From: a virus
Reading direction: 5' to 3' (one strand)
Length of the DNA stretch: 64,000 nucleotides
IMG/VR virus record: IMGVR_UViG_3300034088_000032
Span: 347 to 64,346 of that record
Part shown: positions 742-64,000 of the stretch, in pieces
Position numbering within the stretch: position 1 is the stretch's first letter
Layout: every line of letters begins with the position of its first letter
Notes under the pieces: model-generated
Database searches by the model: none
The model's input: only the letters and a program-made list of their open reading frames with translations
Told to the model about the DNA's origin: nothing
Program-made: the position numbers and the translations under genes

Positions 742-748
742 TTACCGG

Positions 749-5469: not shown

Positions 5470-5474
5470 GTTGT

Positions 5475-7257: not shown

Positions 7258-7304
7258 GGCATCTCACCGCCTCTCCTGGTCGTAGTCACGGAGTCTGCTG
7301 CCGG

Positions 7305-9047: not shown

Positions 9048-9049
9048 CG

Positions 9050-9250: not shown

Positions 9251-9271
9251 TACGTCTCGGGAGGGGACGTC

Positions 9272-10755: not shown

Positions 10756-10756
10756 G

Positions 10757-12084: not shown

Positions 12085-12203
12085 GGGTGCTCCTGCGGCT
12101 GGTCGTCGGTATGGTCAGCGCGATCAGTTCGGTGCGGCCGCGAGGTTCCGGTGGGCGGGCAGGCCGGCCCCGGGATGGTTCGTCACGACGGTTGCCTTTC
12201 TGG

Positions 12204-12815: not shown

Positions 12816-13462
12816 AGGTGCCTCCGTCTGCGGTAGATCCTGACGCCCCGAGCCATCCGGGAACGTTGAGCCGCGTACAGAGGGTCGTTTTCGCCTTTGC
12901 CCCAATTCGGGTGAAGGTGCTCGACGATGCTGTCGGTCGCCGCGGTGAAGGCACCGCGGTGCTTCGCGGTCTCGACGAACTCGTCGTCGACGTACTCGTG
13001 CCAGTACATCTCGCACAGCACCCGGTCTGGCTGGTCGATCGTGCCGTACTGGTTGACGTACTCGCGGGTCACGAGCGAGTGGGTCGAATGCTCGCCCTTG
13101 ATGACGCGGGGGCTGCCGAGATCGTTGGTTCCGACGACGCCGGCGGTTCCGTCGAGGTGGGCGACGGCGGCCTCGTACCAGCCCGGGTGGAAGGTCAGGT
13201 CGGATGCTCCGAGGAACAGGAGCGGCTCTCTGGTGTGCCTGTACCCGGTGTTGATCTTTCTGGCGTAGTCGCCGATCGGGTTGTACTGGACCGTGATCCG
13301 TTCGACCTGCGCCCGGTCGATCTCTGCGTGGACGGCGTGATCGTCGGGGCTCACGGCGAACAGCACCCGTGGGTCCGGGGTGGTGCTGTAGATCGATTCG
13401 AGGAGGGGTCTCACGTGGTGGGGCCGCCCGAGCATGGGCACGATGATGACGAGGCTGTTCAA
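12806..13462 (-). CDS. Glycosyltransferase (GT2-like)
   Basis: IIVPMLGRP, KIN.G, FLGASD, H.YVDDE, VEHLHP. Confidence 0.82.
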   Translation of the reverse strand: MNSLVIIVPMLGRPHHVRPLLESIYSTTPDPRVLFAVSPDDHAVHAEIDRAQVERITVQYNPIGDYARKINTGYRHTREPLLFLGASDLTFHPGWYEAAVAHLDGTAGVVGTNDLGSPRVIKGEHSTHSLVTREYVNQYGTIDQPDRVLCEMYWHEYVDDEFVETAKHRGAFTAATDSIVEHLHPNWGKGENDPLYAAQRSRMARGVRIYRRRRHLWT

Positions 13463-13489
13463 GGGCTCTCCCGGTCGGTGGCTGGTCGG

Positions 13490-13687
13490 TCAGTTTTTCG
13501 TGTACGTCGATCCGGGGTGTGTGGCGACGTAGAGTCTCGCGGCGATCTCGCTTGCCTTGATCACCATCGTGCCGTCCGTGGCGGTGATGGTGTAGGTGCC
13601 TGCGGTCGGGCCGGTGGTGGACCCGCCTGTGGTGTCCGCGGTGTCGCCTGACCCGCGGCTGCCGGTTACTCGCCGTCCGCAGCACAT
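13490..13687 (-). CDS. Small MCCG-start protein of the head module
   Basis: MCCGRR... 65 aa, coupled to the protease stop codon. Confidence 0.6.
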   Translation of the reverse strand: MCCGRRVTGSRGSGDTADTTGGSTTGPTAGTYTITATDGTMVIKASEIAARLYVATHPGSTYTKN

Positions 13688-15669: not shown

Positions 15670-15684
15670 CTTGCGGGCCCCTTT

Positions 15685-16509
15685 CTACTTGACCATCTGT
15701 CGGTGGGTGAGGTCGACGTCCTCGCCCGGTTCCATAAGCAGGGTGGTACACCGGCACTGGATGATTTCCCTGCCTGGCCCGAGCGGATCGCCTGGCCGGC
15801 GGAGCATCGAACCGCCGACGCGGAACGACTGTCCGACCGGTACGCGCTGGCCGTCCGCCGCCCGGTGGGTCGGGCGCGTGCGTCGATCGAGGGTGGCCAA
15901 CCACTGCTGCTCGAACGGCTGGTCCAATTCCTCGGCGACGGCCTCGAACGCGTCCGCGCGGCCGGCGTTGAGTGCACCGATGGTCTCCGTACGGGCGATC
16001 ACCGTTGCCCGGTTCGACCACCTTGGGGTGGCGGTGGTGTCGAGGACTTCCTCCACATCGGCGGCGATCTCCGGTATCGAACTGCCTGCGGAGGCACCCC
16101 GTGCGATCGTCGAGGAGATCACGGAGTGGACCTCGTCGGGGACCCGCACGAGCCGGTTGGTCACGCTGGACAGGTGGTCGACGACGGCCGGGCGCTGGTC
16201 GAAGCGGTACCCGCCGCCCAGAAGTTCGCGGTACGCGGTGCTGACGGCGTCGCGGATGGGCCCGTCGACGACCTCCTTGATCGCCGTTGCCCATCGCGGG
16301 TTGTGGGCGTAGATCGCGATCGGGTCGGGCCGGATCGTGTCGAGGACGCCTCTGCGTACGGCGACGATCCATTCGGACAGGGCAGACCAGACCTCAGCTC
16401 GGATGGCCTGTTCTGCCGCAACAATCTCGACCGCGGCGGCCAGGCGCTCGGGCAGCCATGGGTCGACGCCGTCTCCGTCCCATGCGGGGAGCTGCTCCGG
16501 TGTCGTCAT
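15685..16509 (-). CDS. MuF-like minor head protein
   Basis: RATVIARTE, WLATLDRRTRPTH..ADGQ, PGDP, IQCRC. Confidence 0.9.
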   Translation of the reverse strand: MTTPEQLPAWDGDGVDPWLPERLAAAVEIVAAEQAIRAEVWSALSEWIVAVRRGVLDTIRPDPIAIYAHNPRWATAIKEVVDGPIRDAVSTAYRELLGGGYRFDQRPAVVDHLSSVTNRLVRVPDEVHSVISSTIARGASAGSSIPEIAADVEEVLDTTATPRWSNRATVIARTETIGALNAGRADAFEAVAEELDQPFEQQWLATLDRRTRPTHRAADGQRVPVGQSFRVGGSMLRRPGDPLGPGREIIQCRCTTLLMEPGEDVDLTHRQMVK

Positions 16510-16739
16510 GTCGCGACCGCCCCGTCGTCGGTGATGAGCCATACGTCGCCGTCGGCGAAGAGATACCGGGCGTCGTGGATCTGCATCATGAGCCTGGCGT
16601 CGTCGGGGTTGTCCGGGTACAGGATCCCGCCGTCCGGGCAGACCATGGCGTTCCGGTGCAGGGCTGCCACCGTCGGGCAGTCGATTCGGTGCGGCGGTGG
16701 CTGCCCGCACTGGCAGACCATGTCGACCGTGGTACTCAT
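16506..16739 (-). CDS. Small Cys/His-containing hypothetical protein
   Basis: ATGA overlaps on both sides. Confidence 0.55.
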   Translation of the reverse strand: MSTTVDMVCQCGQPPPHRIDCPTVAALHRNAMVCPDGGILYPDNPDDARLMMQIHDARYLFADGDVWLITDDGAVAT

Positions 16740-18688
16740 GCGGCCACGGCCGTGGGGTGTCGCAGGCGTCGGAGGACGTCGGGCGAGGCGAGGAGGTCGG
16801 CGAGTATGCCGTCGTCGTGGGCCATGCCTCGGGTCAGGAGCATGGCTGCGTACTCGGTCAGCAGCTCGGCGAACGCGTCGGGGTCTATGCGGAGCTGGTC
16901 GACGACGCCGTCGTCGAGGTCGGTCCAGGCGCCGGCGAGAAGGGCAGGTACCCGGTCGGCGGGGACCGGCCCGTACCGGGTGTGGAGTTGGTAGCGGGCG
17001 ACGTTCGGGTACCGGTCACGGTCTCGGTGGGGTACCAGTCGGGACCCTGCGAGTTTCAGCGCGGTCCGGATGGCGAGCCGGGCGGTGGCGACCAGGGCCA
17101 GGGATGCGGGGCTGTCTCCCTGGTCTCCGGGTGGGTCGGCACGGTCGGGTTGTGTCGCGGGCGGCCCGTTCTCCTCCGGTGCCGGTGCTGGTGGCAGTTG
17201 GTTGGGCTGGCCGGGTTGGGTGTCGGCGGTGTCGGCGGTGCCGGTGAGGGCTGGGAGTCCGACGAGGGCTCGGATACCGGGGTCTGCGAGGGCAATCTGC
17301 GGGGCGGCGACGAGGATCTTCTCCGCGAGCCGGCGTGCCCGTTCGTCGTCGTCTGGTGCGTCCTCTTCTCCCCACGCGCCCGCGGTCCGTGCTGCCTCGT
17401 CGGAGAGCAGCAAACGGTCGTGGCCGGTGATGGCGTCCGCGGACCGGTTGGGCCGGACAGTGAGTGACGAATAGTCGAACGCGTAGGTGTATGCGTTCGG
17501 GTCACGTCCGAGCGCTTCCAGTGCTGGGGCCAGGTAGCCGATGGTGAGGGCCGCGGCGATGCGCAGCAGGATCGGCTTGATCTGCGTGTTGATCGCATCG
17601 TCCGAGACCGCCCACGCCGACCAATGGTTCGAGGAGCCGAGTCCCATGAGGACTTCGGGGGGTATGTCAAGGGCACGTGCCAGCGATTCGACCGCCTCTT
17701 TACGGAGGGGGAGGATCTGTTCAGACAGCGGCGACCAAAACGTGATATGCCTGATTTTGTCGAGTAGGTCTGCCTGCCCCGAGATGATGATCGGGACCAT
17801 CGCCTCCGCGGTCGACCGGTCCCGTAGGGATGCGGCCATGGCGCGTTGGAGGACGGCCTGGAACCCGGCGTGTCCTGGCGGGTCGTCCTGACCGCGGGGT
17901 AGGTCAAGCCCGTCAGGTAGTGCCAGCAGACCGGCTCCTGCGAGCCGGCTGTCGAGTTCGGCGAACTCCCGCTTCCGAAGTGCCTCGATCTCGCGGAGAT
18001 CGGGGATGGCTGACCTGGTCGGCGAGTCTGGTTCGCTGGTGCGTCGAGGGTGCGGAGTCCAGCACCGGATCAGTAGGTCGGTGCCGTCGCGGTACTGGAA
18101 CACCCCTCCGCCCAGGTGCGGTGGTCGGGCGATGGTGATCCGGTCGCCTTGCCGGCGGATCTCGCCGCCGGTGACCACCCACCAGTAGTCCTCGCCGTCG
18201 AGGCCAGCATCGCTCTCCGCGACGATGTACGCCTCGCCGGGCACGAACAGGTCGATGCCGAGCAGTCGCAGGGCTTCGGCCTTCGAGGCACCGACACCGA
18301 GGGGCCCTGCGGCGAGCGCGGCGAGCTGCTCGTCGTCGGTCACTTCTTTGCCTGCGTCGCCGTCGGGGTTGACCTCGGCGACGTACAGGCGGCAGCTGGA
18401 GATCGAGGATCCCAGCCAGTTGGACACGAACCGCAGGGGTCCGGTGATGTCGTAGAGCCGCCAGGCGTCGGCCTGCCAGGCGCGGTCGCCGAACCTGTAG
18501 TTCTTCCACGCGGCGCCGTCGAGGTTCACGGAACTGACCGCCGCCGTTAGCGCGGTCGACCGCAGGCCGGGGGGTGCCGCGGGTGGTCTGTCGACCGTCG
18601 TCAGTTCGGCAGGCGGCTCTGTCGGGACAGGAGTCTCGGGTGGCGTGTTGACTGCTGCTCTGCGCGTGCGGCGGCCCAGGACCCCCAT
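16736..18688 (-). CDS. Portal protein
   Basis: WQ.DAW..YD, VPGE, W.PHP, SRL.GAG, D.PPE.L.G.G.SNHWSAW. Confidence 0.88.
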   Translation of the reverse strand: MGVLGRRTRRAAVNTPPETPVPTEPPAELTTVDRPPAAPPGLRSTALTAAVSSVNLDGAAWKNYRFGDRAWQADAWRLYDITGPLRFVSNWLGSSISSCRLYVAEVNPDGDAGKEVTDDEQLAALAAGPLGVGASKAEALRLLGIDLFVPGEAYIVAESDAGLDGEDYWWVVTGGEIRRQGDRITIARPPHLGGGVFQYRDGTDLLIRCWTPHPRRTSEPDSPTRSAIPDLREIEALRKREFAELDSRLAGAGLLALPDGLDLPRGQDDPPGHAGFQAVLQRAMAASLRDRSTAEAMVPIIISGQADLLDKIRHITFWSPLSEQILPLRKEAVESLARALDIPPEVLMGLGSSNHWSAWAVSDDAINTQIKPILLRIAAALTIGYLAPALEALGRDPNAYTYAFDYSSLTVRPNRSADAITGHDRLLLSDEAARTAGAWGEEDAPDDDERARRLAEKILVAAPQIALADPGIRALVGLPALTGTADTADTQPGQPNQLPPAPAPEENGPPATQPDRADPPGDQGDSPASLALVATARLAIRTALKLAGSRLVPHRDRDRYPNVARYQLHTRYGPVPADRVPALLAGAWTDLDDGVVDQLRIDPDAFAELLTEYAAMLLTRGMAHDDGILADLLASPDVLRRLRHPTAVAA

Positions 18689-18691
18689 GGC

Positions 18692-19042
18692 TCACTCCCG
18701 TCCGAGGCTGTTGACCATGCCGACGATCTGACTTGCCGCAAGGGCGAGCATCGGGATCGACACGGCGGGGTTGTCGTACCAGTGGTAGACGATCGGCGCG
18801 GTTCCGGCCGCGACCCATACCGATGCGCACCACTGGCAGCCGTCCGCCCGGTCGTCGGCGCCACCGGTGAGATAGACGATCCACCGGTGGGTGCGACGGT
18901 GGGCGTCGAACCTACTGACGAGCTTTTCCCGGGCGGGCCGGGTGATCTCGTCGACGGTGACCAGACCGGTCAGGCGTGCCGCGGCCAGGACGTAGAGCGC
19001 GATGATCAGAACCGGCGGCATGTGGTGATCATAGGCGGTCAT
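18692..19042 (-). CDS. DUF1360-like membrane protein
   Basis: RLT.LVT.DEIT.P.R and CxWCxSVW, hydrophobic. Confidence 0.75.
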   Translation of the reverse strand: MTAYDHHMPPVLIIALYVLAAARLTGLVTVDEITRPAREKLVSRFDAHRRTHRWIVYLTGGADDRADGCQWCASVWVAAGTAPIVYHWYDNPAVSIPMLALAASQIVGMVNSLGRE

Positions 19043-19077
19043 GTGACGTAGTTGTCGTGGTTCTGTGGTAAGGCGCG

Positions 19078-19122
19078 GACGCCAGGACGCCCGGACCGCT
19101 GGTGTCCGGGCGTCCTGGCGTC
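19078..19122. terminator. Long inverted repeat
   Basis: GACGCCAGGACGCCCGGAC...GTCCGGGCGTCCTGGCGTC. Confidence 0.65.
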
Positions 19123-19200
19123 CTCGGCCTTACACCGGTCGCCTCGGCGCGTGCAGGTGCGTCGACCTCATACTCGCGATCATGATACCTGGGTAGTGGC

Positions 19201-19398
19201 TCAGTCGGTGCGGGACGCCTCGATGGCTGCCAGGACCTGGTCGACTGTCCAGCCCTCGACGAGTTTCATCGCGGCGTTCTCGCGGCAGTTGTCGCAGGCG
19301 CGGGCCGCTGTCCGGCCGTCTTGGCTGACCGAGAGGTAGCCGCACACGAGCGGGTCTGCGAGTGCCTGGTCGATGACTGTTGGTAGGTCAACGGCCAC
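19201..19398 (-). CDS. Hypothetical protein with CxxC
   Basis: GGAG RBS; overlaps the upstream gene. Confidence 0.5.
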   Translation of the reverse strand: MAVDLPTVIDQALADPLVCGYLSVSQDGRTAARACDNCRENAAMKLVEGWTVDQVLAAIEASRTD

Positions 19399-19864
19399 GG
19401 TTGATCTCCTCTTGGGCGAGGTCGAGTGCTGCGCGCAGCCACGCGACCGAGCCGTTGCCGTCCCGGTTGAGGGCCACGAACCTGGCGACGATGTCGGTCA
19501 GCAGGTCTGGACCGGCCCGGTCCGCGATGGCCAGCAGTTCCGTGATGAGCGCCGCGGCTCCGTCGGGGCCGAACGCATACCCGACCTGGACCTGCCTGGT
19601 CGTCTGGTTCACCCTGCCACCGAGCGTCATATAGATCATCTGCCCGTTGATTCGGCCGTCGCGGACGCCGTCGACGATGCAGACCGTAGCGTCGCCGAGC
19701 ATGACGCAGTCGGTCATGTCGAGCACCACTGCGCCCGCATCGTGTGGTCCCCCGGGGCCGGTGATGGCACCGCCGAGCGTGCGGGGGTCGGCGTTGCCCG
19801 TGGGTTGGACTTGACGGTACAGATGGTCGAACGGACCTGGTCGACGACGGGGCCTGTTACTCAT
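19388..19864 (-). CDS. Hypothetical protein
   Basis: AGGAG RBS, typical codon usage. Confidence 0.6.
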   Translation of the reverse strand: MSNRPRRRPGPFDHLYRQVQPTGNADPRTLGGAITGPGGPHDAGAVVLDMTDCVMLGDATVCIVDGVRDGRINGQMIYMTLGGRVNQTTRQVQVGYAFGPDGAAALITELLAIADRAGPDLLTDIVARFVALNRDGNGSVAWLRAALDLAQEEINRGR

Positions 19865-19928
19865 AACGATGATCTCCTATACCGGTGGTTGTCGTTTTCG
19901 GCTTCGATTCTGTACCGATGGTATCGCT

Positions 19929-21593
19929 TTATCCGAGGGGTCCGAACGCGCCCGTCGAGAACCCGCCACCGCCCAGTGCACCACCGCGGTCGAGCGGGGT
20001 CGACGCGGTGACCGGCATCGACCCGGACGGGGCTGGCGCCGCCTGCCCCTCGCTGGCCCGCGGAACGGTCAACAGTGCGTAGGCCAGGTACACCGACGCG
20101 TCGAGCCGGCCGGGGGAGTCCTTACTGTCCGCCTGCCAGGTCGCCCACTCCTCTTCGAGTTCCGGCAGGTACGCGGCAGTGCGGATGCGGTCGACTTTCC
20201 ACTGCTGCCCGACCGGGTCGGCACGCAGGCGTTTGTTCTTACGGGCCCGGACGGCTGCAACCATCGGGCACAGGCGGTAGAACGTTGCCTCGTCGCGGTA
20301 CCGCGGGTCGTTCGGGTCGCCGCCGTACTCGTCGAGTTCTTCACGACGGAGCTTGTCCCAGGCGGTACGGATGGTCAGGGTGGCCATGTCGCCGCCGAAG
20401 TTTACCTCGACGATGATCCGGTCGGCGTCGGTCGCGACCGCGAGCCGGCACGCCTTTTCCGCCCATTCGTCGGAGGCCATGACCCCTGACCAGTCGTGGG
20501 TGTAGTAGAGGCGTCCGTCGCTGCCCCGGTAGCCGGCGATGATGCCGGCGACGTCCCGGCCGCCGCCTGACGGGTCGACGGCGACCGCGGCCTTCACCGG
20601 GCTGGTGTCGCATGGCGATGACTCGGCGCCTTCGGCCCAGCATCGCCGTGCACGGAGGGTCGACCGTTCGAGGATCGCACCCTCGGCTGGCTGGGCGTCG
20701 AGTTGGTACAGGGCCGACCAGTCCTGCACGGTCGACGATGACCTCTTGTCCTCCCAGTGGGCGAGGGCCGCGGCAACGTCCCTGACCGGGATCTTCGGGT
20801 GTGGCAGCGGCGCACCGTAGGTGCGACCGAGCGGGTCGCGGTCGGGGTGGGTGCACAGGGCAGGCATGTCGACGACGAGCCACCGGCCGCCGTCTTCGAT
20901 ACGTCCTTGATCGGCGATGACCCGTGCGCCGAGGTCGTCAGGGTGCCAGGGCGTCATGACCATGATGACCGGGGCGCGGGGGGACAACCGGGAGATCACG
21001 TCCGCGGAAAGCCATTTGTATGCCCGGTCCCGGTACCGGAGGTTGTCCGCCTCCTCCCGGGACTTGTGGGGGTCGTCGATGAACGCAATGTCGCCGGGTG
21101 AGCCGGTCACGCCGGAGCCGATACCGACGCTCTTGACACCGCCTCCGGAGACGAGGCGCCAGTCGTCGACACGTTCGGAGCCGCGTTCGAATCGCAGCCC
21201 GTACCGGTGCCCGGATTCTTCGATCATCTTTTTGACGTCGCGGCCCCGGTCGACGGCCAGATCTGAGTTGTACGAGCCGATGATGACCCGGTCGCTCGGG
21301 TGGTTCGCGAGCCACCAGACAGCGGCCCCGACGACGGCCGTGACGGTCTTGCCGGTCTGCGGTGGTACGCGGATCAGCACCCGGTCGACCCGCCGGTCGG
21401 GGTCCATGACCCTGGCCACGGCCGCGGCGATGATCCGCAGGTGGGGGCGGAGCCGGTAGCCGAGCATCACTCGACGCATGAGGGTGGACGGGTCGCCAAG
21501 GGCTGCGATGTCTTCGAGGCGTTCGAGTTCCCTCGCCTGGCTGAGCAGTTCCCGGTCGGTCATGGTCGACAGCGGGCGGAGGGCCCCGGTCAT
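19929..21593 (-). CDS. terL: Terminase large subunit
   Basis: Walker A PPQTGKT, Walker B IDDPHK, MTPWH.DDL, nuclease VDPS, EVNFGG. Confidence 0.95.
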   Translation of the reverse strand: MTGALRPLSTMTDRELLSQARELERLEDIAALGDPSTLMRRVMLGYRLRPHLRIIAAAVARVMDPDRRVDRVLIRVPPQTGKTVTAVVGAAVWWLANHPSDRVIIGSYNSDLAVDRGRDVKKMIEESGHRYGLRFERGSERVDDWRLVSGGGVKSVGIGSGVTGSPGDIAFIDDPHKSREEADNLRYRDRAYKWLSADVISRLSPRAPVIMVMTPWHPDDLGARVIADQGRIEDGGRWLVVDMPALCTHPDRDPLGRTYGAPLPHPKIPVRDVAAALAHWEDKRSSSTVQDWSALYQLDAQPAEGAILERSTLRARRCWAEGAESSPCDTSPVKAAVAVDPSGGGRDVAGIIAGYRGSDGRLYYTHDWSGVMASDEWAEKACRLAVATDADRIIVEVNFGGDMATLTIRTAWDKLRREELDEYGGDPNDPRYRDEATFYRLCPMVAAVRARKNKRLRADPVGQQWKVDRIRTAAYLPELEEEWATWQADSKDSPGRLDASVYLAYALLTVPRASEGQAAPAPSGSMPVTASTPLDRGGALGGGGFSTGAFGPLG

Positions 21594-56592: not shown

Positions 56593-57477
56593 ATGAGCGA
56601 TGGTACCGACGTCGAGTGGACCCACCGACCCGGGACACGAGCCGCGTCCCGGAATCCCGTGACCGGTTGCGACCAGATATCACCAGGTTGCGACAACTGT
56701 TATGCCCTGACCATGGCCCGCCGGTTGCAGGCCATGGGCTCGGCGAAGTATCAGGCCGACGGTGACCAGCGGACCAGCGGCCCAGGGTTCGGCGTCACCT
56801 GCCACCCTGGCGAACTGGCCAGCATGCTCCGCACGCTGGGCCGGTCCCGGTGGACAGTGTTCCTGCCCAGCATGGGCGACCTCGGCCACCCACGAGTCCC
56901 CCGGCCGTTTCTCGCCGCGACGCTCGCGACCATGGCCGCCTTGCCGAACTGCACGTTCATCTCACCGACCAAACGACCGGGCCGTCTGGCCCTGGCATTC
57001 AACGACCAGCAGTTCGTCGCCGAGGTCGCCCAGGCCGGTACCGGCCCGGTCAAGGTCGACGGCCTCGCCGCGCGGATGCCCGACCAACTGGTCTGGCCCC
57101 TGCCGAACTTGGAGATCGGCACGAGCGTGGAGTCGGACAGGTACGCGCGTCGCCGGGTCGACCAGCTCCGCGCGACGCCGGCCGCGTTGCGGTTCATCTC
57201 CGCAGAGCCGCTACTCGGCCCATTACACCTGGACCTCACCGGAATCGACTGGCTGATAGTCGGCGGCGAGTCCGGCCCGGGGGCGAGGCCGATGGAATTG
57301 AGCTGGGCGCTCGATCTGGTCGAGTCGGCGCGGGCCGCCGGCGTACCGGTGTTCATCAAACAGTTGGGCACCGTATGGGCCGCAGGCCACGGCAAGGGCA
57401 ACCGTCCCGAGGAGTGGCCTGAGAACCTTCGTATCCGTGAGTTCCCACCCGCTGCCCAGACCACACCGGAGGAGTGA
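56593..57477 (+). CDS. DUF5131 (gp37/gp68) radical-SAM-like protein
   Basis: VEWT, NPVTGC..ISPGCDNCYA, SMGDL, TKRP, EPLLGP, W.IVGGESG..ARPM, F.KQ.G. Confidence 0.92.
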   Translation: MSDGTDVEWTHRPGTRAASRNPVTGCDQISPGCDNCYALTMARRLQAMGSAKYQADGDQRTSGPGFGVTCHPGELASMLRTLGRSRWTVFLPSMGDLGHPRVPRPFLAATLATMAALPNCTFISPTKRPGRLALAFNDQQFVAEVAQAGTGPVKVDGLAARMPDQLVWPLPNLEIGTSVESDRYARRRVDQLRATPAALRFISAEPLLGPLHLDLTGIDWLIVGGESGPGARPMELSWALDLVESARAAGVPVFIKQLGTVWAAGHGKGNRPEEWPENLRIREFPPAAQTTPEE

Positions 57478-58357: not shown

Positions 58358-58723
58358 ATGACTCGCCGAACCGGAGCTCCATTCGAGCCCACCACCACCG
58401 GCCTACGTACGTGGCTGGACAGCATCCCTGCCGACCAGCGGGTCGAGCTGTGCATGTTCCTCGTCTCGACCGACGCGCGGTCGGTGGTCGCTGACCAGAT
58501 CGACGCCGCCGTCGCCCAGCTCGTCGAGCACTCCACGTACCTCGACGTCGCCCTGCGGTTCAAGTGGTCCAAGTCCAACGTGCAGCGCCGGGTGACCCGG
58601 TACCGCGCCCGCACCGGGCAGAAACGCCCGCCCCGGACACGACGCTCCGACCAGGCCGACACCACGACGAAGCCCGGCCGTCCCGCGGGCGCCGAACGCA
58701 CGCCATCGTTCGTGGCCCCCTGA
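58358..58723 (+). CDS. HTH protein preceded by its own class B operator (candidate repressor)
   Basis: TYLDVALRFKWSKSNVQRRV; TAGTAT-6-ATG. Confidence 0.65.
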   Translation: MTRRTGAPFEPTTTGLRTWLDSIPADQRVELCMFLVSTDARSVVADQIDAAVAQLVEHSTYLDVALRFKWSKSNVQRRVTRYRARTGQKRPPRTRRSDQADTTTKPGRPAGAERTPSFVAP

Positions 58724-58746: not shown

Positions 58747-58788
58747 ACGAGTGAGCCCCATGCACCGCGGTGCATGGGGCTCACTCGT
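58747..58788. repeat. Perfect 42-bp palindrome at a convergent junction
   Basis: ACGAGTGAGCCCCATGCACCG|CGGTGCATGGGGCTCACTCGT. Confidence 0.9.
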
Positions 58789-58796: not shown

Positions 58797-59573
58797 TTAG
58801 ATCGTCTCGGCACGTTCAGCCTGGACTGCACCGACTGTCGGAGCTGGTGCCTGCCTCTGCCCGTGCGTCGACGCCCACCACGCGGCGACGTCCTCGAGGT
58901 GGTCGCTGCCACCAGGCACCCGCGGCGGCGCGTACGCGAACGAGCCGTCGGCCCGGTGGTCAGCCAACGTGCAACCCCCGAGCCCCTTCGCCAGGCGGTA
59001 TACGGTGTTCGGACGCCACCGGTCCAACCACTCCTCGACCCTGGTCGGATCGGAAGTCTTGCCGGTGTACGCGTGCTTCCACGACTGCCAGACACCGAGC
59101 AGTTCCGACACCGCCCACGGGTGGTACGCCCAACAGTGCGGTAGGGACGAGTCCGGATACCGCGCCCACACCTGCGCGATCCACTCCGCCAGGCCGTCGA
59201 GCAGGCGGCGGGACTGCTCGACGTCGTCGATCGTCAGCCACGACGGCTGGCCCTTGGGCTTCTTCTCGTCGTCTGCGGTCAGGGCTGCGATGGCCTCCTC
59301 GACCTCGGCTCGCCACGTGCCGTACCCGTCGAGATGGGCGCCCATCGCCTCGGCGAGTTTCGCCACATCCTCACGGGTGTGGCCGGCGGCGGTCGCCGCG
59401 GCTGACGCCTGCGCCGATGCCTGGTCGACGTCGCCGCGCATGTCGTTGATATCGCGGCCGATCACGTTCAGGGTCGCGCGGATACCGCGCAGCTGCTCGG
59501 GGGTGTCGTCGCCCCGGGGCCGGCGTTTACCGACGCCGGCCGCGCCCGGGAGTTGCTGCTGTTCGTCGCTCAT
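58797..59573 (-). CDS. DUF4913-like protein with N-terminal coiled coil
   Basis: L.EW...VW..Y, PHCWAYHPWAV.EL..VW..W..AY, W..RW. Confidence 0.7.
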   Translation of the reverse strand: MSDEQQQLPGAAGVGKRRPRGDDTPEQLRGIRATLNVIGRDINDMRGDVDQASAQASAAATAAGHTREDVAKLAEAMGAHLDGYGTWRAEVEEAIAALTADDEKKPKGQPSWLTIDDVEQSRRLLDGLAEWIAQVWARYPDSSLPHCWAYHPWAVSELLGVWQSWKHAYTGKTSDPTRVEEWLDRWRPNTVYRLAKGLGGCTLADHRADGSFAYAPPRVPGGSDHLEDVAAWWASTHGQRQAPAPTVGAVQAERAETI

Positions 59574-61249
59574 GCGTCCTCGCCGCCTGCATCGCGGGTG
59601 TCCTCGTCGAGTTCGGTCGCCGTCTCGAACGCCGTCTCGATCGTTGGACGCCATGGTGATCGTTTCATCGCCCGCTTGATGTCGCGACGCTTCCACGCCA
59701 TGCGGGTACGGACCAGGCAGGCGGGCATGCCTCGTGTGATCAGCATGGCGTGACCGGTGGGAAGGTTCGCGATCTGCGCGGTCGAGAGGACCGGCACCGC
59801 CCTGTGCGTCGACGAGATCACCCGGCCGCCCTTGTCCCTGGTCTCGACGACCTCCCGGCGTTCACCTGACAACTTGGAGAATGCGTCCAGGTCGGACGGG
59901 TCACGTGCCGCGCCGTACACGACGATCGAGGCAGCATTGTTCATGATCGTCCCTGCGCCCTCGTCGCCCCACCGTTGACGGAGTTGACTTCGTCCTTGCA
60001 CAGATATGACGATCTTGATGCATCGTCCGCCCATGTCGGCCGTCCACTGGTCCAGTGGCACCGGACAGACCAGCGCGGCTTCGTCGAGTGCGATCAGCAG
60101 CGACGGGTCGAGCCGCTCGCTTGCCTGGTCCGCCGCAAGGGCGTGCGCGGCTCGGGCGATTTCGGCCGTGAACGCCGCGACCAGCGCGGCCGTGGCACCG
60201 TCCTCCTTGCCGAGCAGGTACATCGTCCCCTTGTCCGCGATGAACTGCCTGACGTCGAACGGGTCGCCACCGACGACATCTGCGAGGGCCGCGGCCCTTG
60301 GGTCGAGGAGCCAACGCATGGCGGGCATCATAGTCGTGGTGATCGATGTCTTCGTCTTGTCGTTCGTCGTGAAGAACTGCATGCATGCGGCCTGCATGGC
60401 CTGTGCCTCCGGCGACTCCCGCAGCGCGTTATGGACCTCACGTGCTGACGCCTCGGTTGGGTTCGAGATCCACTGGTGGACCCTCGACATCGGCCGGTCG
60501 GCCATCGCCGCAGCGTGCAGCATCATGGCCAGAGCCCCCCGGGCCTGAACATCCCACCGTTCCGCCTCCGGGCTGTTCGCCGTCGGGATCATGTCGGCCG
60601 CCCTCGTCTGCGCGACCGACGGCACCTTGCAGCCCGCCAGAGGTGACCACTTCACTGTGGACGCCAGGCGTCCGAGCCCGGTCGGGTTGAACACGTGAAT
60701 CGGACCTACGTGCTGCCTCGTGGGGGCGGTCAGCTTGATGAGGTCGGTCCGCGTACTGGTGACGATCGCCGCGCCAGGCGCGTCGACGATCAGCCCAGCG
60801 ATCGCGCCCGTCTTGCCTGTCCGCGGTCCGCCGACAAACAACACCGTGTCCTCGACCGACGTCATGACCCGCCGGCGCCCATCACGCGCCAGCTCGTACG
60901 AGTAGTCGGTGACCGGGTGTCTGAGGAGTTCGTACCGACTGAGGCCGGCGAGCGATGGCTTGAGCTGCTGCGCACGGCGACGCATCGCCCGGACCGAGGT
61001 GACCTTCTCGTGGTTGATCCACGAGGCCGTCCCGCCGTTCCGGTTCGACGTGTGCTCCCACCTGGCCAAGAGCGCGTTCGTCGAGTTGCGGCGCATGTAC
61101 CAGAGCACAGGACGGCCAACCGTCCAGGCGGCCCCGCCCATCGTCAGGGGTACACCGATCTCGGGCCGGTACGACGACAGGACCAGGCCGAGCGACGCGG
61201 CGCCCGCCCCCACACCTGCACTGCTGAAAGGGAACCTGTATCCGCTCAT
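59570..61249 (-). CDS. Type IV coupling protein (VirD4/TraG-TraD family)
   Basis: N-terminal TMs; Walker A GGPRTGKT, TSTRTD, VFNP.G, WSPL.GC, LDEAA..CPVPL, QGRSQL..RWG. Confidence 0.9.
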   Translation of the reverse strand: MSGYRFPFSSAGVGAGAASLGLVLSSYRPEIGVPLTMGGAAWTVGRPVLWYMRRNSTNALLARWEHTSNRNGGTASWINHEKVTSVRAMRRRAQQLKPSLAGLSRYELLRHPVTDYSYELARDGRRRVMTSVEDTVLFVGGPRTGKTGAIAGLIVDAPGAAIVTSTRTDLIKLTAPTRQHVGPIHVFNPTGLGRLASTVKWSPLAGCKVPSVAQTRAADMIPTANSPEAERWDVQARGALAMMLHAAAMADRPMSRVHQWISNPTEASAREVHNALRESPEAQAMQAACMQFFTTNDKTKTSITTTMMPAMRWLLDPRAAALADVVGGDPFDVRQFIADKGTMYLLGKEDGATAALVAAFTAEIARAAHALAADQASERLDPSLLIALDEAALVCPVPLDQWTADMGGRCIKIVISVQGRSQLRQRWGDEGAGTIMNNAASIVVYGAARDPSDLDAFSKLSGERREVVETRDKGGRVISSTHRAVPVLSTAQIANLPTGHAMLITRGMPACLVRTRMAWKRRDIKRAMKRSPWRPTIETAFETATELDEDTRDAGGEDA

Positions 61250-61749
61250 GGGCGGGTGCCTCCTTGAGGAACGGTCATGCCGTCGACGACACGCCGGGGG
61301 ATGTTGGGCAGCGCGTACCGGGTGGGCCCGGCAACCGGCTGCGGCAGGTGACGGAGCCTCAGCTCCGCCAGCAGCGCGCCGACCGCATCCGCGGTCACCA
61401 CGGGCAGGTACGCCGCCTGCTCGAACGCGTGGCGCTCGTCAATACCGTCGATGTCGACGGCCACACGCAGCTCGATCCACGGCCTGCGGTGCACGGCGGC
61501 TACCCTGGTAGCGACGAGACGTCCCCAGTCGAGTACCCAGGTCGTCGCCGGCGACCGGTGCTGGCCTGTCGGATACCCGTACCGCGCGGTGCACGTGTGA
61601 TCCGAGGCGCACCAGTCCGGGCAACGGCGCGCTGCCCGACGCCAGCGACGTCCGGTCGAGGCACCTTCCCGACGGACCTCGTCACGTACATCAGCGAGCA
61701 CCTGTTGCAGGATCCGGATAACCCGGGGGGTGCCGATACGATGCCACAT
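61246..61749 (-). CDS. Hypothetical protein with CPxWC..H..C..H motif
   Basis: CPDWCASDHTC..GQHRS; ATGA overlap with the coupling-protein gene. Confidence 0.6.
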   Translation of the reverse strand: MWHRIGTPRVIRILQQVLADVRDEVRREGASTGRRWRRAARRCPDWCASDHTCTARYGYPTGQHRSPATTWVLDWGRLVATRVAAVHRRPWIELRVAVDIDGIDERHAFEQAAYLPVVTADAVGALLAELRLRHLPQPVAGPTRYALPNIPRRVVDGMTVPQGGTRP

Positions 61750-61827
61750 GCTGCCCTGTCCTCCGATCGGGTAGTGGCGCCCCTGGCCGTGGTCACGGCA
61801 CATGCTCGCGGCCGGGGGTCCAGCCGG

Positions 61828-62142
61828 TCAGGTCTGTCGTCTGACCGGTCGTGGGCCCGGCCTGCGAGGCGGCAGCCCGGCCTCTCGGCACAGGCTGGCC
61901 ACGGTCCGGCCGTTGTACGGCCGGTTCACCAGCTCGTGTGGGTCGACTCCGAGTCCGAGGGCATGGATGACCAGCGGTGCGGCGTGGGCGGCGATGAGCG
62001 CACGCGCCAGAGTCACCGACTGGTGTAGGACGGTCACAGCGTCGAGCATCGCCAATGTCCCCGCCCTGTCGTGCGGCGGCGGCGCGCTGAGCTGGGCAGC
62101 CAGACGCTCTGCCTCAACTCGTATTGATGTCGCGAGATCCAT
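61828..62142 (-). CDS. Hypothetical protein, possible HTH
   Basis: PY...TV..L.REAGLPP. Confidence 0.5.
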   Translation of the reverse strand: MDLATSIRVEAERLAAQLSAPPPHDRAGTLAMLDAVTVLHQSVTLARALIAAHAAPLVIHALGLGVDPHELVNRPYNGRTVASLCREAGLPPRRPGPRPVRRQT

Positions 62143-62388
62143 GGGCCCGAGCGTACGCGAGTTATGCGGGTGGTGCAAGAATCGGCCCCGGGGCTAGTCC
62201 CTGGTACGGTTGCGTATCTACCTCGTCAACCGGTAACGTAGTCCGTACACGTCCATGAACACCATCCCCGTGTACGACGAAGGCCCCGGCGAGGATCCCC
62301 ACCCCCGCCGGGGCCGACCACGACGGAGGCACCCGTCATGACCAATCATGCAGCACAACCCCACTACCCCGGCACCAGGTGACCGACG

Positions 62389-62574
62389 ATGTGGGGCCGA
62401 CAGACCAGCCAACGCCCGGCACGACTCTCCCCGGCCGACCTGGCCGAGGTCGCAGCGAACACAGCAGCGACCAGCGACCAGGACGACGCAGCCGACTACC
62501 ACGAAGGCACCCCATACGGCGGCACCGCGTGGTGGGAGCGAGCGGACACAGACGACGACTCGGACGGAACGTGA
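62389..62574 (+). CDS. 61-aa acidic peptide (paralog of 26730-26909)
   Basis: AGGTGA RBS; DQDDAADYHEGTPYGGTAWWE. Confidence 0.65.
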   Translation: MWGRQTSQRPARLSPADLAEVAANTAATSDQDDAADYHEGTPYGGTAWWERADTDDDSDGT

Positions 62575-62579
62575 TCTAG

Positions 62580-64000
62580 ATGAAGCAGTTCAACCTGCTC
62601 CTCGACTGGGGAGGTGACGTCTGGGACCGGCACGGCGACCTGATCCTCCTCGGGATCGGGCTCGTCGCCCTGGTCGCCGTGTGCGTCGCCTTCGGCCTGT
62701 TCCTCAAGGCCAAGGACAAAGGCGACGTCACCGCTAAGATCTCCGCGCTCGTCATCATGGCCTGGACGTCAGAAGGCGTATTCACGACCGCCTACGGCGT
62801 GTGGGACCTGCCCATCGCCTTCGTCGCCGCGACGTTCTTCGTCTTCGAGACGATGTACGCCGCAGCCTGGTTCAAGGCCGAGGCCAGCCGTAAGAGCATC
62901 GGCAGCCCAGGCCCGGCCGGCTGGTACATGTTCGTCATCGGCGCGTTCCAGGGCGGTGTCGCCGCAGCCGGCGCCACCATGGTCTCCCTGGGTGTGATGC
63001 GGGTCGTCCTGCCGGTGCTGTCGCTCGGCATGATGCTGATCTTCATGATCGCTCCGCGTGACAGCGACAGCGAGGACATCCGGACCAATCGCGCCACGCG
63101 GGCACGTCTCCGCGCCGCAACCTGGGCAATCACCCCGTCCCTGCTCCTGATCCGCATCGGCTGGATGGTCGCGGGCGAGGGGACCTCGGCGACCACGGCC
63201 CAGCTCAAAAGGGCGATCAACCGCATGGTCGCGGCGGCCGACACGATCGCGGTCTACGGCAGGCCGACAGGCCGCGGATCACGCAAGGTCCGTCGGGCCC
63301 GACGGCGCCTGCGTGTGATCATGCGGACTGCGACTCCCGCGATGATCGAGGAAGCCCGGCGGCTCGCTCTCCAGGCCTCCGCCGCGGAGATCCTGATCGT
63401 CCCGTCAACGACCACGATCGAAGCACTCCGGAACCACCTGGCTGAACACCCGGAAGCCGCTCTCGACCCGCTCCGGGTCGACGCTCAGGTCACCGACCTG
63501 GTCGCACCCCTCGACACTGAGGTCACCGACCTGGTCGCACCACCGACCGACCCGGTCGCGCTCGGGTCGGGCAGCCCGGCAACCCAACCGTCAAGGATCA
63601 ACGGGTTCGCAGGCACCTTCGTCGAGGACCCCGACCACACCCCCGACCAGAGCGACCCGGTCGCCCACGCAGACGACCAGGTCGACGACGACGACGAGGC
63701 CGGCGGTCCTGATGTGACCGCACGTCCCCAGGACGATCAGCTGCTCCTCGCCTGGTACCGCGACCAGCTGACCAGCGAGTTCGCAGCGGCAGTGTCCGAC
63801 ACCACCGGGAAAGCGAAGGTCACCGCGTACAAGGTCGGCCAGCTCGCCAGGGTCGACCGTCGCCAGGCCGAGCGGCTCATATCGACCGTAGCGGTCGATG
63901 TATTCCTCTCCCCACTCACCGCACTCGACGAGGCAGGCAACCTGACCCCGTCCGAGGTCGCACGTCTCTGCCGGGTCGCGAACGGACCCGCAGATCTGAT
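62580..64000 (+). CDS. SpdB/KilB-like multi-TM protein with C-terminal HTH (runs off the window)
   Basis: Open frame from ATG 62580: 4-5 TM helices, basic region, Pro/Asp linker, VTAYKVGQLARVDRRQAERL. Confidence 0.65.
   Translation, partial: MKQFNLLLDWGGDVWDRHGDLILLGIGLVALVAVCVAFGLFLKAKDKGDVTAKISALVIMAWTSEGVFTTAYGVWDLPIAFVAATFFVFETMYAAAWFKAEASRKSIGSPGPAGWYMFVIGAFQGGVAAAGATMVSLGVMRVVLPVLSLGMMLIFMIAPRDSDSEDIRTNRATRARLRAATWAITPSLLLIRIGWMVAGEGTSATTAQLKRAINRMVAAADTIAVYGRPTGRGSRKVRRARRRLRVIMRTATPAMIEEARRLALQASAAEILIVPSTTTIEALRNHLAEHPEAALDPLRVDAQVTDLVAPLDTEVTDLVAPPTDPVALGSGSPATQPSRINGFAGTFVEDPDHTPDQSDPVAHADDQVDDDDEAGGPDVTARPQDDQLLLAWYRDQLTSEFAAAVSDTTGKAKVTAYKVGQLARVDRRQAERLISTVAVDVFLSPLTALDEAGNLTPSEVARLCRVANGPADL

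What the first reader, a model, noticed from the sequence alone, without database searches (positions are those of the whole stretch)
58797..64000. Tailed phage genome carrying actinomycete conjugation genes (phage-conjugative hybrid)
Seen: the same window holds a near-complete head/tail/packaging/lysis module and an intact VirD4/TraG coupling protein coupled to a DUF4913-like gene, plus an SpdB-like membrane protein. Plasmid-type genes (DUF6573-like, Cre-like) lie in the phage arm. The small peptide family at 26.7 and 62.4 kb links both arms, arguing for one element. No relaxase or VirB4 is visible in the window. Inference: a dual-mode element spreading by virions and by hyphal transfer, or a coupling protein repurposed by a phage.
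Basis: partly seen in the sequence, partly recalled or inferred. Interest (0 to 1): 0.8.

Follow-up and report, generated by a model that had tools for sequence, protein, structure and literature searches.

The report
Phage carrying a conjugation coupling ATPase
An incomplete genome of a tailed phage of filamentous actinomycetes carries, as part of its own DNA, the motor protein that plasmids use to feed DNA into a mating channel, but none of the other parts needed for conjugation, so it is a borrowed plasmid part of unknown use and not a shown phage-plasmid hybrid.

Summary
The window is 64,000 of the 64,346 bases of a single linear virus contig. CheckV rates it 86% complete and it has no end repeats. 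It is a phiAsp2/Rosebush-type siphovirus. The contig breaks just before the tape-measure gene at one end and inside a gene at the other, so the claim of a "near-complete tail/lysis module" fails.

The coupling protein (T4CP, 59570-61249, minus strand) is real. It has three Pfam T4CP domains and intact Walker A and B motifs. It is translationally coupled to a 258-aa partner that follows T4CPs in 86 of 102 actinobacterial loci and is a distant DUF4913 relative. A divergent membrane protein (62580-end) has homologues beside T4CPs on two plasmid-like contigs, but no DUF2637/SpdB likeness by profile.

In plasmids and ICEs the pair is normally followed by a MobF relaxase (78-80 of 102 loci). Here there is no relaxase, VirB4, TraB/FtsK, integrase, ParA or ParB.

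The cassette belongs to the phage:
- contig-length matches place it with phage genes in two other, diverged assemblies;
- its composition matches the rest of the genome;
- natural variants in the T4CP are mostly synonymous.

None of 45 related virus records and none of 50,697 phage records has it.

This scan has noted relaxase+T4CP modules in other (pro)phages before. Dual-mode spread is not shown.

The parts
59570..61249 (-). Type IV coupling protein (VirD4/TraG/TrwB type), 559 aa, Walker A and B intact; N-terminal hydrophobic segments are weak
   Evidence: Pfam PF02534, PF12696 and PF10412 above their cut-offs; NCBIfam VirD4-like matches below their cut-offs; motifs and hydropathy; 9 of 11 listed natural substitutions are synonymous
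58797..59573 (-). Partner 'A', 258 aa: an N-terminal helical hairpin plus an all-alpha Cys/His/Trp-rich domain; a distant DUF4913 relative; ATGA overlap with the T4CP stop codon
   Evidence: A homologue lies downstream of the T4CP in 86 of 102 loci; alignment A2; hhalign against DUF4913 E 2.1e-5; Pfam DUF4913 model matched 0 of 22 members; fold; overlap
61246..61803 (-). ORF 'C', 185 aa, with a CPDWC...H motif; ATGA overlap with the T4CP start codon. The gene call is uncertain because the opposite strand is equally open
   Evidence: Overlap and AAGGAGG ribosome-binding site; ambiguous GC-by-codon-position signal; short matches in L045 and G016 only; no family match
61828..62178 (-). ORF 'D', 116 aa, possible first gene of the T4CP operon; uncertain
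   Evidence: ORF list; ambiguous coding signal; no family match
62389..62574 (+). Small acidic peptide gene that ends 5 nt before gene E; a paralogue of 26730-26909 (minus) in the phage arm
   Evidence: BLASTP 13 of 21 identical, E 5e-8; GC3 0.77; sequence
62580..64000 (+). Gene 'E': a membrane protein with several hydrophobic segments and a C-terminal HTH-like region (my reading of the sequence); cut by the contig end at residue 473; transcribed divergently from the T4CP operon
   Evidence: Coding signal runs to the contig end; hydrophobic segments; homologous to the gene upstream of the T4CP on Natronoglycomyces plasmid p1 (E 1e-8) and, through that gene, to the gene divergent from the T4CP on a Jiangella contig; not DUF2637 by HMM or hhalign
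58747..58788 (.). Perfect 42-bp palindrome (21+21) in the 73-bp gap between the convergent genes F and A; it looks like a two-way terminator hairpin; not an att repeat
   Evidence: the repeat finder I1; sequence
58358..58723 (+). Gene 'F', the last gene of the phage right arm; its promoter carries the last copy (58335-58353) of the 11-copy operator
   Evidence: Operator search: 11 sites from 35556 to 58335, none in 58.8-64 kb, 0.02 expected by chance
56593..57477 (+). DUF5131 (phage Gp37/Gp68 family) gene of the right arm; used as a marker of linkage to the T4CP
   Evidence: Pfam 1.1e-60, PHROG 2045; homologues on contigs of 82,080 and 6,062 bases, the same lengths as the contigs that hold T4CP homologues
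208..21593 (-). Packaging, head, connector and proximal-tail block, from TerL to the Pas25-like gene; the contig ends where the tape-measure gene should begin
   Evidence: PHROGs; collinear with phiAsp2 and with G005, G011, G008 and G016; tape-measure genes in relatives

Best explanation
SHOWN. The region is an accessory cassette that belongs to the genome of an approximately 80-kb phiAsp2/Rosebush-type siphovirus of a filamentous actinomycete. The window's contig holds about four fifths of that genome. The cassette is an operon of (D)-(C)-T4CP-A plus a divergent peptide-E unit. Its core, the T4CP and the DUF4913-like partner A, matches the front part of the T4CP-A-MobF relaxase modules of actinobacterial plasmids and ICEs. 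E has homologues at the same place on two plasmid-like contigs. The relaxase was left behind: a hairpin and convergent phage genes follow A directly. By synteny with relatives, the cassette sits where the tail/lysis operon and the right arm converge, a usual place for phage accessory genes. It has diverged together with the phage backbone and is under purifying selection.

INFERRED. The 64 kb seen hold no relaxase, no mating channel and no plasmid-maintenance genes, so this DNA cannot conjugate by itself. The most likely use is an interface with conjugative DNA transfer that other elements in the host provide. The phage's ring ATPase, with A as adaptor and E as a membrane-bound DNA-binding partner, would receive a relaxase-DNA complex. 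That complex could form on phage DNA that carries a mimic of a transfer origin, in which case the phage behaves as a mobilisable 'hitcher'. Alternatively it could belong to a resident MobF element, whose transfer the phage would then divert or block.
For: Phage identity and truncation. T4CP identity and intact motifs. Operon coupling.

A conserved T4CP partner: A lies downstream on the same strand in 86 of 102 loci. True DUF4913 proteins also follow distant T4CPs, in 4 of 4 above-cut-off hits. hhalign of the A family against DUF4913 gave E 2.1e-5.

Source module: a MobF relaxase lies within the fetched flank in 78 of 102 loci (query L001) or 80 of 102 (query L003), and is absent from the window. 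The L003 query is a TrwC relaxase-helicase. Annotated plasmids show the same layout. E homologues are shown.

The cassette belongs to the phage:
- The T4CP homologue P0002 (83%), capsid homologue P0122 (86%) and DUF5131 homologue P0242 (78%) each lie on a single 82,080-base NCBI contig.
- T4CP P0004 (76%) and DUF5131 P0243 (75%) each lie on a 6,062-base ENA contig.
- In the window these two genes span 4,657 bases, which leaves no room in 6,062 bases for a 4.2-4.6-kb relaxase between them.
- The tetranucleotide signature of 58797-64000 correlates with the rest at r 0.944, against 0.901-0.953 for 21 phage segments.
- A peptide gene in the cassette has a paralogue in the phage arm.
- Short contigs from both arms occur at similar depth in metagenomes of three studies.

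Selection: 9 of 11 listed substitutions in the T4CP are synonymous.

Place: in G005 and G011 the tail genes converge on the right arm.

No integrase was found in the window, G005 or G011.
Against: No relaxase, oriT, VirB4 or TraB was found, so the substrate and the channel are both hypothetical.

In the two host-type genomes where I could map positions, and on the complete 34-kb Streptomyces plasmid, no VirB4-like gene lies near the T4CP-A-MobF module. It is therefore unclear what channel such modules use at all.

The phage-clade T4CPs have weak N-terminal hydrophobic segments (KD19 maximum 0.84-1.42 in 6 of 6), against 1.99 or more in 9 of 14 other relatives. This hints at altered membrane anchoring and possibly another job.

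The phage operator regulon does not extend into the cassette.

The right end of the contig is open, so phage DNA on the far side of the cassette has not been seen.
Confidence: 0.55

Rival explanations
1. True dual-mode, self-mobilising phage. The missing roughly 13-18 kb holds a MobF relaxase and oriT as well as the tail genes, so the phage nicks its own DNA and exports it through its T4CP. This would be a phage-IME hybrid, like the relaxase+T4CP (pro)phages that this scan noted on other DNA.
For: The contig is incomplete and gene E runs off its end. The sister contig is 17.7 kb longer. The tail modules of relatives take about 8-12 kb, which leaves room for a 4.5-kb relaxase. On some plasmids the relaxase lies apart from T4CP-A or on the other strand. 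Earlier notes of this scan report relaxase+T4CP modules in other (pro)phages (these are unchecked leads, not evidence).
Against: In most loci the relaxase follows A directly, and here it does not. This relaxase-less junction appears to be conserved in the 6,062-base contig. No relaxase lies in the 64 kb. No mating-channel gene was found.
Confidence: 0.2
2. Repurposed motor. The T4CP no longer serves conjugation. It acts as a phage DNA or protein translocase, or as a developmental or host-takeover factor in hyphae. It would be a functional analogue of the FtsK/SpoIIIE-like proteins that many actinophages carry, including relatives of this one.
For: Relative G011 has a 749-aa P-loop protein near the end of its right arm that matches the PHROG 'FtsK/SpoIIIE-like protein' at E 5e-46. 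G005 has a 711-aa ORF at the same place. Streptomyces phage papers list FtsK/SpoIIIE-like genes as accessory genes (passages of PMC11536984 and PMC13587820). T4CPs are said to be related to FtsK/SpoIIIE (passage of PMC3429521). The phage clade has weak transmembrane segments. There is no relaxase. The neighbouring arm carries GGDEF and SsgA developmental genes.
Against: The plasmid-type partners A and E are retained with the T4CP, which suggests the original protein contacts still matter. BLASTP found no likeness between the T4CP and the G011 protein. Pfam sees only a Walker A motif in the G011 protein. No function is known for the phage FtsK-like proteins either.
Confidence: 0.17
3. An independent neighbour. 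The contig is a prophage with flanking host or ICE-remnant DNA, and the T4CP region lies outside the phage.
For: The cassette lies at the contig's end, and phage DNA beyond it is unseen. The place corresponds to where temperate siphoviruses usually carry attP. The only IMG/VR match to this T4CP family lies 3.5 kb from the edge of a record classed as a provirus, next to a MobF relaxase. The operator regulon stops at 58335.
Against: No integrase, att-like direct repeat or tRNA lies at the junction. The near-complete relatives G005 and G011 have no integrase. The record is classed as linear, not as a provirus. The same junction appears in relatives only 75-83% identical. Composition is the same. 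A peptide gene in the cassette has a paralogue inside the phage.
Confidence: 0.06
4. A chimeric assembly that joins a phage contig to a plasmid or ICE contig near 58.7 kb.
For: It is a metagenome-type contig. A 42-bp palindrome lies at the junction.
Against: Homologues of genes from both sides share contigs of identical length in two other assemblies. In run X1, contigs without differences cover 58355-58782 and 58776-58926 (this run may be the source sample). Composition is the same.
Confidence: 0.02

Closest known systems
T4CP / DUF4913-like / MobF-relaxase modules of actinobacterial plasmids and ICEs (for example Streptomyces chartreusis plasmid unnamed3 NZ_CP108823.1, Natronoglycomyces albus p1 NZ_CP070498.1, Kribbella sp. 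GL6 plasmid)
   Same: The T4CP is 29-56% identical. The same partner gene lies directly downstream (86 of 102 loci). A membrane protein gene lies upstream, homologous to E in p1 and on a Jiangella contig. No VirB4 is annotated on the complete 34-kb plasmid.
   Different: The phage copy lacks the MobF relaxase that lies within the fetched flank in 78-80 of 102 loci. It sits in a tailed-phage genome. E is divergent rather than co-directional. The N-terminal hydrophobic segments are weaker.
Integrative mobilisable elements and mobilisable plasmids that encode their own coupling protein but no mating channel (review PMC5704250: I saw only its search listing and the start of its abstract; the detail is recalled)
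   Same: A T4CP without VirB4 or mating-pair genes, implying dependence on another element's channel.
   Different: As recalled, those elements carry a relaxase or at least an oriT, plus an integrase or replication genes. None of these was found here. This element makes virions.
Phage-plasmids such as P1, N15 and SSU5 (Pfeifer et al. 2021, PMC7969092, passages read; review PMC12282955, passages read)
   Same: A phage genome that carries plasmid-type genes.
   Different: Phage-plasmids are defined by plasmid replication and partition functions. No ParA or ParB was found here, and Rep was not tested. The passages I read treat transfer by conjugation and transfer in virions as alternatives, and they describe no coupling protein in a phage-plasmid.
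FtsK/SpoIIIE-like accessory proteins of actinobacteriophages
   Same: A large P-loop translocase-type gene of unknown role in phages of mycelial actinomycetes. It is present in relative G011 near the same end of the right arm. Such genes are listed in Streptomyces phages.
   Different: It is a different family: there is no BLASTP likeness and no PHROG matches the T4CP. The T4CP comes with plasmid-type partners.
Actinoplanes phage phiAsp2 (NC_005885) and Rosebush-type cluster B mycobacteriophages (backbone only)
   Same: Portal 42%, capsid 59%, and a collinear head-to-tail gene order.
   Different: tblastn of the window's genes against the whole phiAsp2 record found no match to the T4CP, A or E.
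Relaxase+T4CP modules in (pro)phages noted earlier by this scan (e1-5948700, e1-5795074, e1-6071869 and others)
   Same: A tailed (pro)phage that carries a VirD4-type coupling protein, in two cases in high-GC actinobacteria.
   Different: Those notes report a MobF or MOBQ relaxase beside the T4CP; here none is visible. There was no sequence likeness to this window in the scan's index. They are unchecked AI notes.

Membership tests
Type IV coupling protein (VirD4/TraG/TrwB) | T4CP domain architecture (T4SS-DNA_transf, TrwB_AAD_bind, TraG-D_C) | tested here: met
   All three Pfam families are above their cut-offs across residues 132-523
Type IV coupling protein (VirD4/TraG/TrwB) | Walker A and Walker B NTP-binding motifs | tested here: met
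   GGPRTGKT at residue 140 and LIALDEAA at 384-391. G140, P142, G145, K146, D389 and E390 are invariant in the 20-sequence alignment A1
Type IV coupling protein (VirD4/TraG/TrwB) | N-terminal transmembrane anchor (two helices; a feature recalled from the family) | tested here: inconclusive
   Two Gly/Ala-rich segments reach only 1.42 and 0.98 on a 19-residue Kyte-Doolittle scale; 9 of 14 non-phage relatives reach 1.99 or more. This is a crude hydropathy measure only
Type IV coupling protein (VirD4/TraG/TrwB) | Works with a relaxase and a VirB4-type channel encoded by the same element | tested here: not met
   No TrwC relaxase and no AAA_10 in the 64,346 bases. The contig is incomplete. Other relaxase families and CagE/TrbE-type VirB4 models were not searched
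DUF4913 (PF16259) | Match to the Pfam model | tested here: not met
   0 of 22 members of the A family matched at E 0.1. There was no match in the genome at E 1
DUF4913 (PF16259) | Remote homology and the same gene position (directly after a T4CP) | tested here: met
   hhalign of A2 against four true DUF4913 proteins gave probability 76.6%, E 2.1e-5, over 131 columns, with the Cys-Trp-His-Pro, Ala-Trp and Cys...His motifs aligned. All four of those proteins follow a T4CP. The ESM Atlas gives a lead at 0.90
DUF2637 / 'SpdB-like' spread proteins | Match to PF10935 or to a profile of DUF2637 proteins | tested here: not met
   No match at E 1. hhalign of A4 against A5 gave probability 0.5%. BLASTP against the L001 DUF2637 protein was not significant. 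Only language-model features at 0.92 point that way. The link between SpdB and DUF2637 is recalled, not tested
Self-transmissible conjugative element (T4SS type or actinomycete TraB type) | Relaxase plus oriT, or a TraB/FtsK translocase plus clt | tested here: not met
   PF08751 absent. PF01580 absent. MobF tblastn gave no hit. No non-coding 12-mer shared with the 99 T4CP loci searched (L004-L102) exceeded background (a crude test)
Phage-plasmid | Plasmid partition or replication functions beside the phage genes | tested here: not met
   ParA-type AAA_31 and ParB_N are absent. Plasmid Rep families were not searched. The contig is incomplete
Tailed phage (Caudoviricetes, phiAsp2/Rosebush type) | Terminase, portal, major capsid and tail proteins in collinear order | tested here: met
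   The tape measure and distal tail are missing because the contig ends there

The most novel reading that the evidence does not exclude
A lineage of approximately 80-kb siphoviruses of filamentous actinomycetes keeps a plasmid-derived coupling ATPase cassette (T4CP, a DUF4913-like adaptor and a membrane/HTH protein) under selection. With it, phage DNA can pass from cell to cell, or from one hyphal compartment to the next, without virions. It would do so either through a resident element's transfer machinery or through a minimal, channel-less actinomycete transfer system of the kind suggested by MobF/T4CP plasmids that lack VirB4. This would be a second, contact-dependent route of transmission for a virus.
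Probability: 0.2. Interest if true: 0.85.

Novelty: new variant of a known kind. Interest (0 to 1): 0.6.

Why it matters
Phages and conjugative elements are treated as two separate routes of gene transfer, and the review passages I read describe conjugation and virion transfer as alternatives.

I found no description of a coupling protein kept under selection inside a tailed-phage genome:
- four full-text searches found none, and 'DUF4913' occurs in no paper of the library;
- no PHROG family matched it;
- tblastn of this T4CP at E 1e-5 matched none of 50,697 phage records.

If the cassette lets phage DNA use mating machinery, or lets the phage control resident plasmids and ICEs, it links the two routes. 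That would matter for how genes move in antibiotic-producing, mycelial actinomycetes.

It also draws attention to the widespread T4CP-A-MobF modules of actinomycetes. In the cases I could check, these have no VirB4 nearby, and their transfer mechanism is itself unexplained.

If the cassette is only cargo, the finding is still a clean example of plasmid-to-phage gene capture.

Tried and rejected

I used the search for related loci and handles instead.

megablast of 57000-64000 and of 1-25000 against phages found no match.

A single-protein scan of IMG/VR with the T4CP found nothing. The alignment scan found one provirus record. The metagenome scan gave only relatives of 59% identity or less.

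Complex prediction of the T4CP with A gave 'no answer' (score 0.00). This is neither for nor against binding.

Fold of A (mean pLDDT 75.4): Foldseek against the PDB gave nothing at E 0.001. VIA-align wide matched only the coiled-coil hairpin (best Z 9.1). The C-terminal domain was not searched alone. A profile search of PDB sequences returned only coiled coils.

oriT search: 12-mers from the two intergenic regions were no more widely shared with the 99 T4CP loci searched (L004-L102) than background (one search timed out). The consensus scans for promoters and terminators gave nothing above shuffled sequence.

The idea that the FtsK-like protein of relatives is a T4CP homologue is not supported by BLASTP or Pfam. 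The Pfam FtsK_SpoIIIE model matched 8 of 45 related records, only 2 of them above the cut-off.

Sequencing runs: no RNA holder was listed. The laid runs are short contigs. None of the listed pieces spans 58.7 kb by 31 letters or more on both sides, and parts without cover say nothing.

A lookup in this scan's index by sequence and by relatives found nothing.

For the search of 45 related records I passed 45 of the 54 loci. I left out nine short contigs: L120, L128, L131, L134, L137, L138, L140, L144 and L146.

The substitution count uses the 40 differences printed of 135 (95 were not shown).

I did not search for lysis genes, plasmid Rep families, relaxase families other than MobF/TrwC, or CagE/TrbE-type VirB4 models. 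I saw no supplementary files of any paper.

Full report
WHAT THE DNA IS. The window is bases 347-64346 of a single 64,346-base record. The tools class the record as a linear virus contig without end repeats, 86% complete by CheckV. GC content is 64-72% throughout, with no break.

Genes from about 47 kb down to 0.2 kb lie on the minus strand. Among them PHROGs recognises:
- large terminase, 19929-21593;
- portal, 16736-18688;
- an SPP1 gp7-type head-morphogenesis protein, 15685-16710;
- major head protein, 7305-9092;
- major tail protein, 5475-6176;
- head-tail adaptor, 2649-3428;
- a neck protein, 1362-1802.

The closest isolated phage is Actinoplanes phage phiAsp2, with portal at 42% and capsid at 59% identity. 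The block is collinear with phiAsp2 from Pas3 to Pas25.

A second arm (47.06-58.72 kb, plus strand) starts with a GGDEF cyclase and an SsgA-like gene. It carries 10 of the 11 copies of an 8-3-8 palindromic operator; the eleventh lies at 35556 in the other arm. SsgA-like genes suggest a filamentous actinomycete host. So do capsid and DUF5131 homologues in Micromonospora genomes. This is inference, and the restriction of SsgA to such bacteria is recalled.

THE CONTIG IS TRUNCATED. The last structural gene (208-741) matches phiAsp2 Pas25. In the related IMG/VR records G011 and G005, a 1,193/1,202-aa tape-measure gene follows its homologue directly (PHROG E 5e-110 and 5e-117). The window has no tape measure and no distal tail genes.

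At the other end, the gene at 62580 runs off the contig with coding signal up to the last bases. The two ends share no repeat. The closer relatives are 77-83 kb at 93-96% completeness.

THE CASSETTE. The ORF at 59570-61249 (minus) is a type IV coupling protein. Three Pfam T4CP families score above their cut-offs. NCBIfam VirD4/TraG models match weakly. Walker A and B are intact, and their residues are invariant in an alignment of 20 relatives.

Its stop codon overlaps (ATGA) the start of a 258-aa gene, 'A' (58797-59573). Its start codon overlaps (ATGA) the stop of a 185-aa ORF, 'C', behind an AAGGAGG site. C and a further 116-aa ORF, 'D', have an ambiguous coding signal and almost no homologues.

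Divergently transcribed are a small acidic peptide gene (62389-62574) and, 5 nt later, gene 'E'. E has several hydrophobic segments in residues 17-161. By my reading of the sequence, it also has a C-terminal helix-turn-helix-like stretch.

A FAMILY OF T4CP PARTNERS. A tblastn search of A against 102 loci that hold relatives of this T4CP (plasmids, genomes, metagenomes) found it in 86. In all 86 it lies on the same strand downstream of the T4CP.

The family has invariant Trp, Cys and His residues. None of 22 members matches a Pfam family convincingly, and none matches DUF4913. However, true DUF4913 proteins in the same genomes also sit directly after more distant T4CPs, in 4 of 4 above-cut-off hits. 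Profile-profile comparison aligns their motifs with those of A (probability 76.6%, E 2.1e-5). 'DUF4913-like' is therefore fair as remote homology, not as membership.

The AlphaFold model shows a helical hairpin plus an all-alpha domain, with no informative PDB match.

GENE E. E is homologous (E 1e-8) to the gene just upstream of the T4CP on Natronoglycomyces plasmid p1. Through that gene it is related to a gene divergent from the T4CP on a Jiangella contig.

It does not match DUF2637 by HMM, BLASTP or hhalign, although DUF2637 genes do occupy the position upstream of other T4CPs. Only language-model features suggest a likeness.

WHAT IS MISSING. In 78 (query L001) or 80 (query L003) of the 102 loci, a MobF relaxase lies within the fetched flank, usually straight after A. 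The L003 query was confirmed as a TrwC relaxase-helicase.

In the window, A is followed by a 73-bp gap that holds a perfect 42-bp palindrome, and then by the convergent last gene of the phage arm. The whole record lacks:
- TrwC relaxase;
- FtsK/SpoIIIE;
- VirB4-like AAA_10;
- tyrosine and serine recombinase catalytic domains;
- ParA-type AAA_31 and ParB_N.

The cassette is therefore the front half of a plasmid mobilisation module, without the nicking enzyme.

DOES IT BELONG TO THE PHAGE? Several lines say yes.

1. The best T4CP homologue (P0002, 83%), the best capsid homologue (P0122, 86%) and the best DUF5131 homologue (P0242, 78%) each lie on one NCBI contig of exactly 82,080 bases. The T4CP homologue P0004 (76%) and the DUF5131 homologue P0243 (75%) each lie on an ENA contig of 6,062 bases. 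In the window, DUF5131 and the T4CP span 4,657 bases. Equal lengths are indirect evidence, but two coincidences are unlikely. The divergence is similar for backbone and cassette.

2. The tetranucleotide signature of 58797-64000 correlates with the rest at r 0.944, inside the range of 21 phage segments (0.901-0.953).

3. The peptide gene in the cassette has a paralogue in the phage arm.

4. Short contigs from both arms occur in sediment, freshwater and lake metagenomes of three studies at similar depth. Run X1 may be the source sample.

5. In G005 and G011 the tail operon converges on the right arm. In a complete genome the cassette would therefore sit at that convergence, inside the phage.

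6. No integrase or att-like repeat lies at the junction. G005 and G011 have no integrase either.

Against: phage DNA beyond E has not been seen, and the operator regulon stops at 58335.

RARITY. None of 45 related virus records has a T4CP (15 of them at least 90% complete; 45 of the 54 loci found). The positive control worked. The four closest relatives lack the T4CP, A, D and E. No PHROG family matches the T4CP. tblastn against 50,697 phage records found nothing at E 1e-5, whereas 322 plasmids matched.

SELECTION. Of the 11 substitutions listed inside the T4CP in runs X2 and X3, 9 are synonymous. The other two lie in a small indel-compensated patch.

HOW IT MAY WORK. T4CPs dock relaxase-DNA complexes and power their export, and they are related to FtsK/SpoIIIE (passage of PMC3429521). 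Without a relaxase or a channel of its own, the phage cassette can work only with partners supplied in trans, or in a new role.

I favour an interface with resident MobF-type elements: either mobilisation of phage DNA, or diversion or blocking of the residents' transfer. The reason is that both plasmid-type partners, A and E, are retained.

Two observations weaken the classical picture. The parent modules themselves have no VirB4 nearby in the cases I could map: a complete 34-kb plasmid and two genomes. And the phage-clade T4CPs have weak membrane segments.

Relatives carry an FtsK/SpoIIIE-like protein, by PHROG annotation, near the same end of the right arm. This keeps open a repurposed-motor reading.

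EARLIER NOTES OF THIS SCAN. These report relaxase+T4CP modules in other (pro)phages. I did not test them. They raise the odds that a relaxase lies in the missing segment, and they make this finding one more member of a recurring, unpublished pattern and not a singleton.

LITERATURE. Four full-text searches for phage-borne coupling proteins found no such description. 'DUF4913' occurs in no paper of the library. Of PMC12282955, PMC7969092, PMC3429521, PMC11536984 and PMC13587820 I read only the passages returned by 'find'. Of the other papers I saw only the search listings.

VERDICT. This is a real, conserved, phage-borne coupling-protein cassette, and a new variant of plasmid-to-phage gene capture. 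The hybrid, dual-mode reading is not shown, and it cannot be settled on this truncated contig.

Noticed in passing
G011:C1:53732-55981 (L168:13732-15981, minus); G005:C1:72428-74563: Related phages carry a 749-aa (G011) or 711-aa (G005) P-loop protein near the end of the right arm. G011's matches the PHROG 'FtsK/SpoIIIE-like protein' at E 5e-46, but Pfam sees only a Walker A motif. It may be a functional counterpart of the window's T4CP.
   Followed up: partly
L180 (NZ_CP108823.1, whole plasmid); G055:C5 about 687 kb; G057:C1 about 5.93 Mb: Actinobacterial T4CP / DUF4913-like / MobF modules have no VirB4-like gene nearby, and the complete 34-kb plasmid has no annotated VirB4 or TraB at all. 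How these elements transfer is unclear.
   Followed up: partly
window 47060-47686; L013:3088-3513 and 7 other T4CP loci; L180:14011-14604: Small sensor-less GGDEF proteins like the phage's occur within 10 kb of the T4CP in 8 of the loci searched (best 43% identity). One is annotated on the Streptomyces plasmid. This gene is shared between the phage arm and plasmid/ICE neighbourhoods.
   Followed up: no
L003 / G046 (IMG/VR record classed as provirus, 109,724 bases), 3529-10133: T4CP, A and a TrwC relaxase-helicase lie 3.5 kb from the edge of a record classed as a provirus. I did not examine whether they are inside the prophage or in its flank.
   Followed up: partly
window 59570-61249, residues 1-60: The six T4CPs of the phage clade (P0001-P0006) have much weaker N-terminal hydrophobic segments than 9 of 14 more distant relatives.
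   Followed up: partly
window 53013-53717: Of the natural variants listed for this right-arm gene in run X3, 5 of 6 change the amino acid. By contrast, 9 of 11 are silent in the T4CP and 7 of 7 are silent in 43288-44400. The gene may be evolving fast.
   Followed up: no
window 28568-28660 (minus): A tRNA-Leu(CAA), 93 nt, lies inside the middle region of the phage, overlapping the ORF 28514-29077 picked by my crude gene caller.
   Followed up: no
genome bases 52-617 (window 2-271, plus): An opposite-strand ORF with an HTH-like C-terminus fills the last 600 bases before the left contig end. It is at the position of phiAsp2 Pas26 and of the minus-strand ORF G011 41654-42157, just before the tape-measure gene.
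   Followed up: no
window 37460-38542 (minus): The 'Cre-like' ORF shows only weak, N-terminal-half similarity to tyrosine recombinases (NCBIfam E 1e-5; Pfam SAM-like domain E 0.003). No catalytic-domain match was found.
   Followed up: partly
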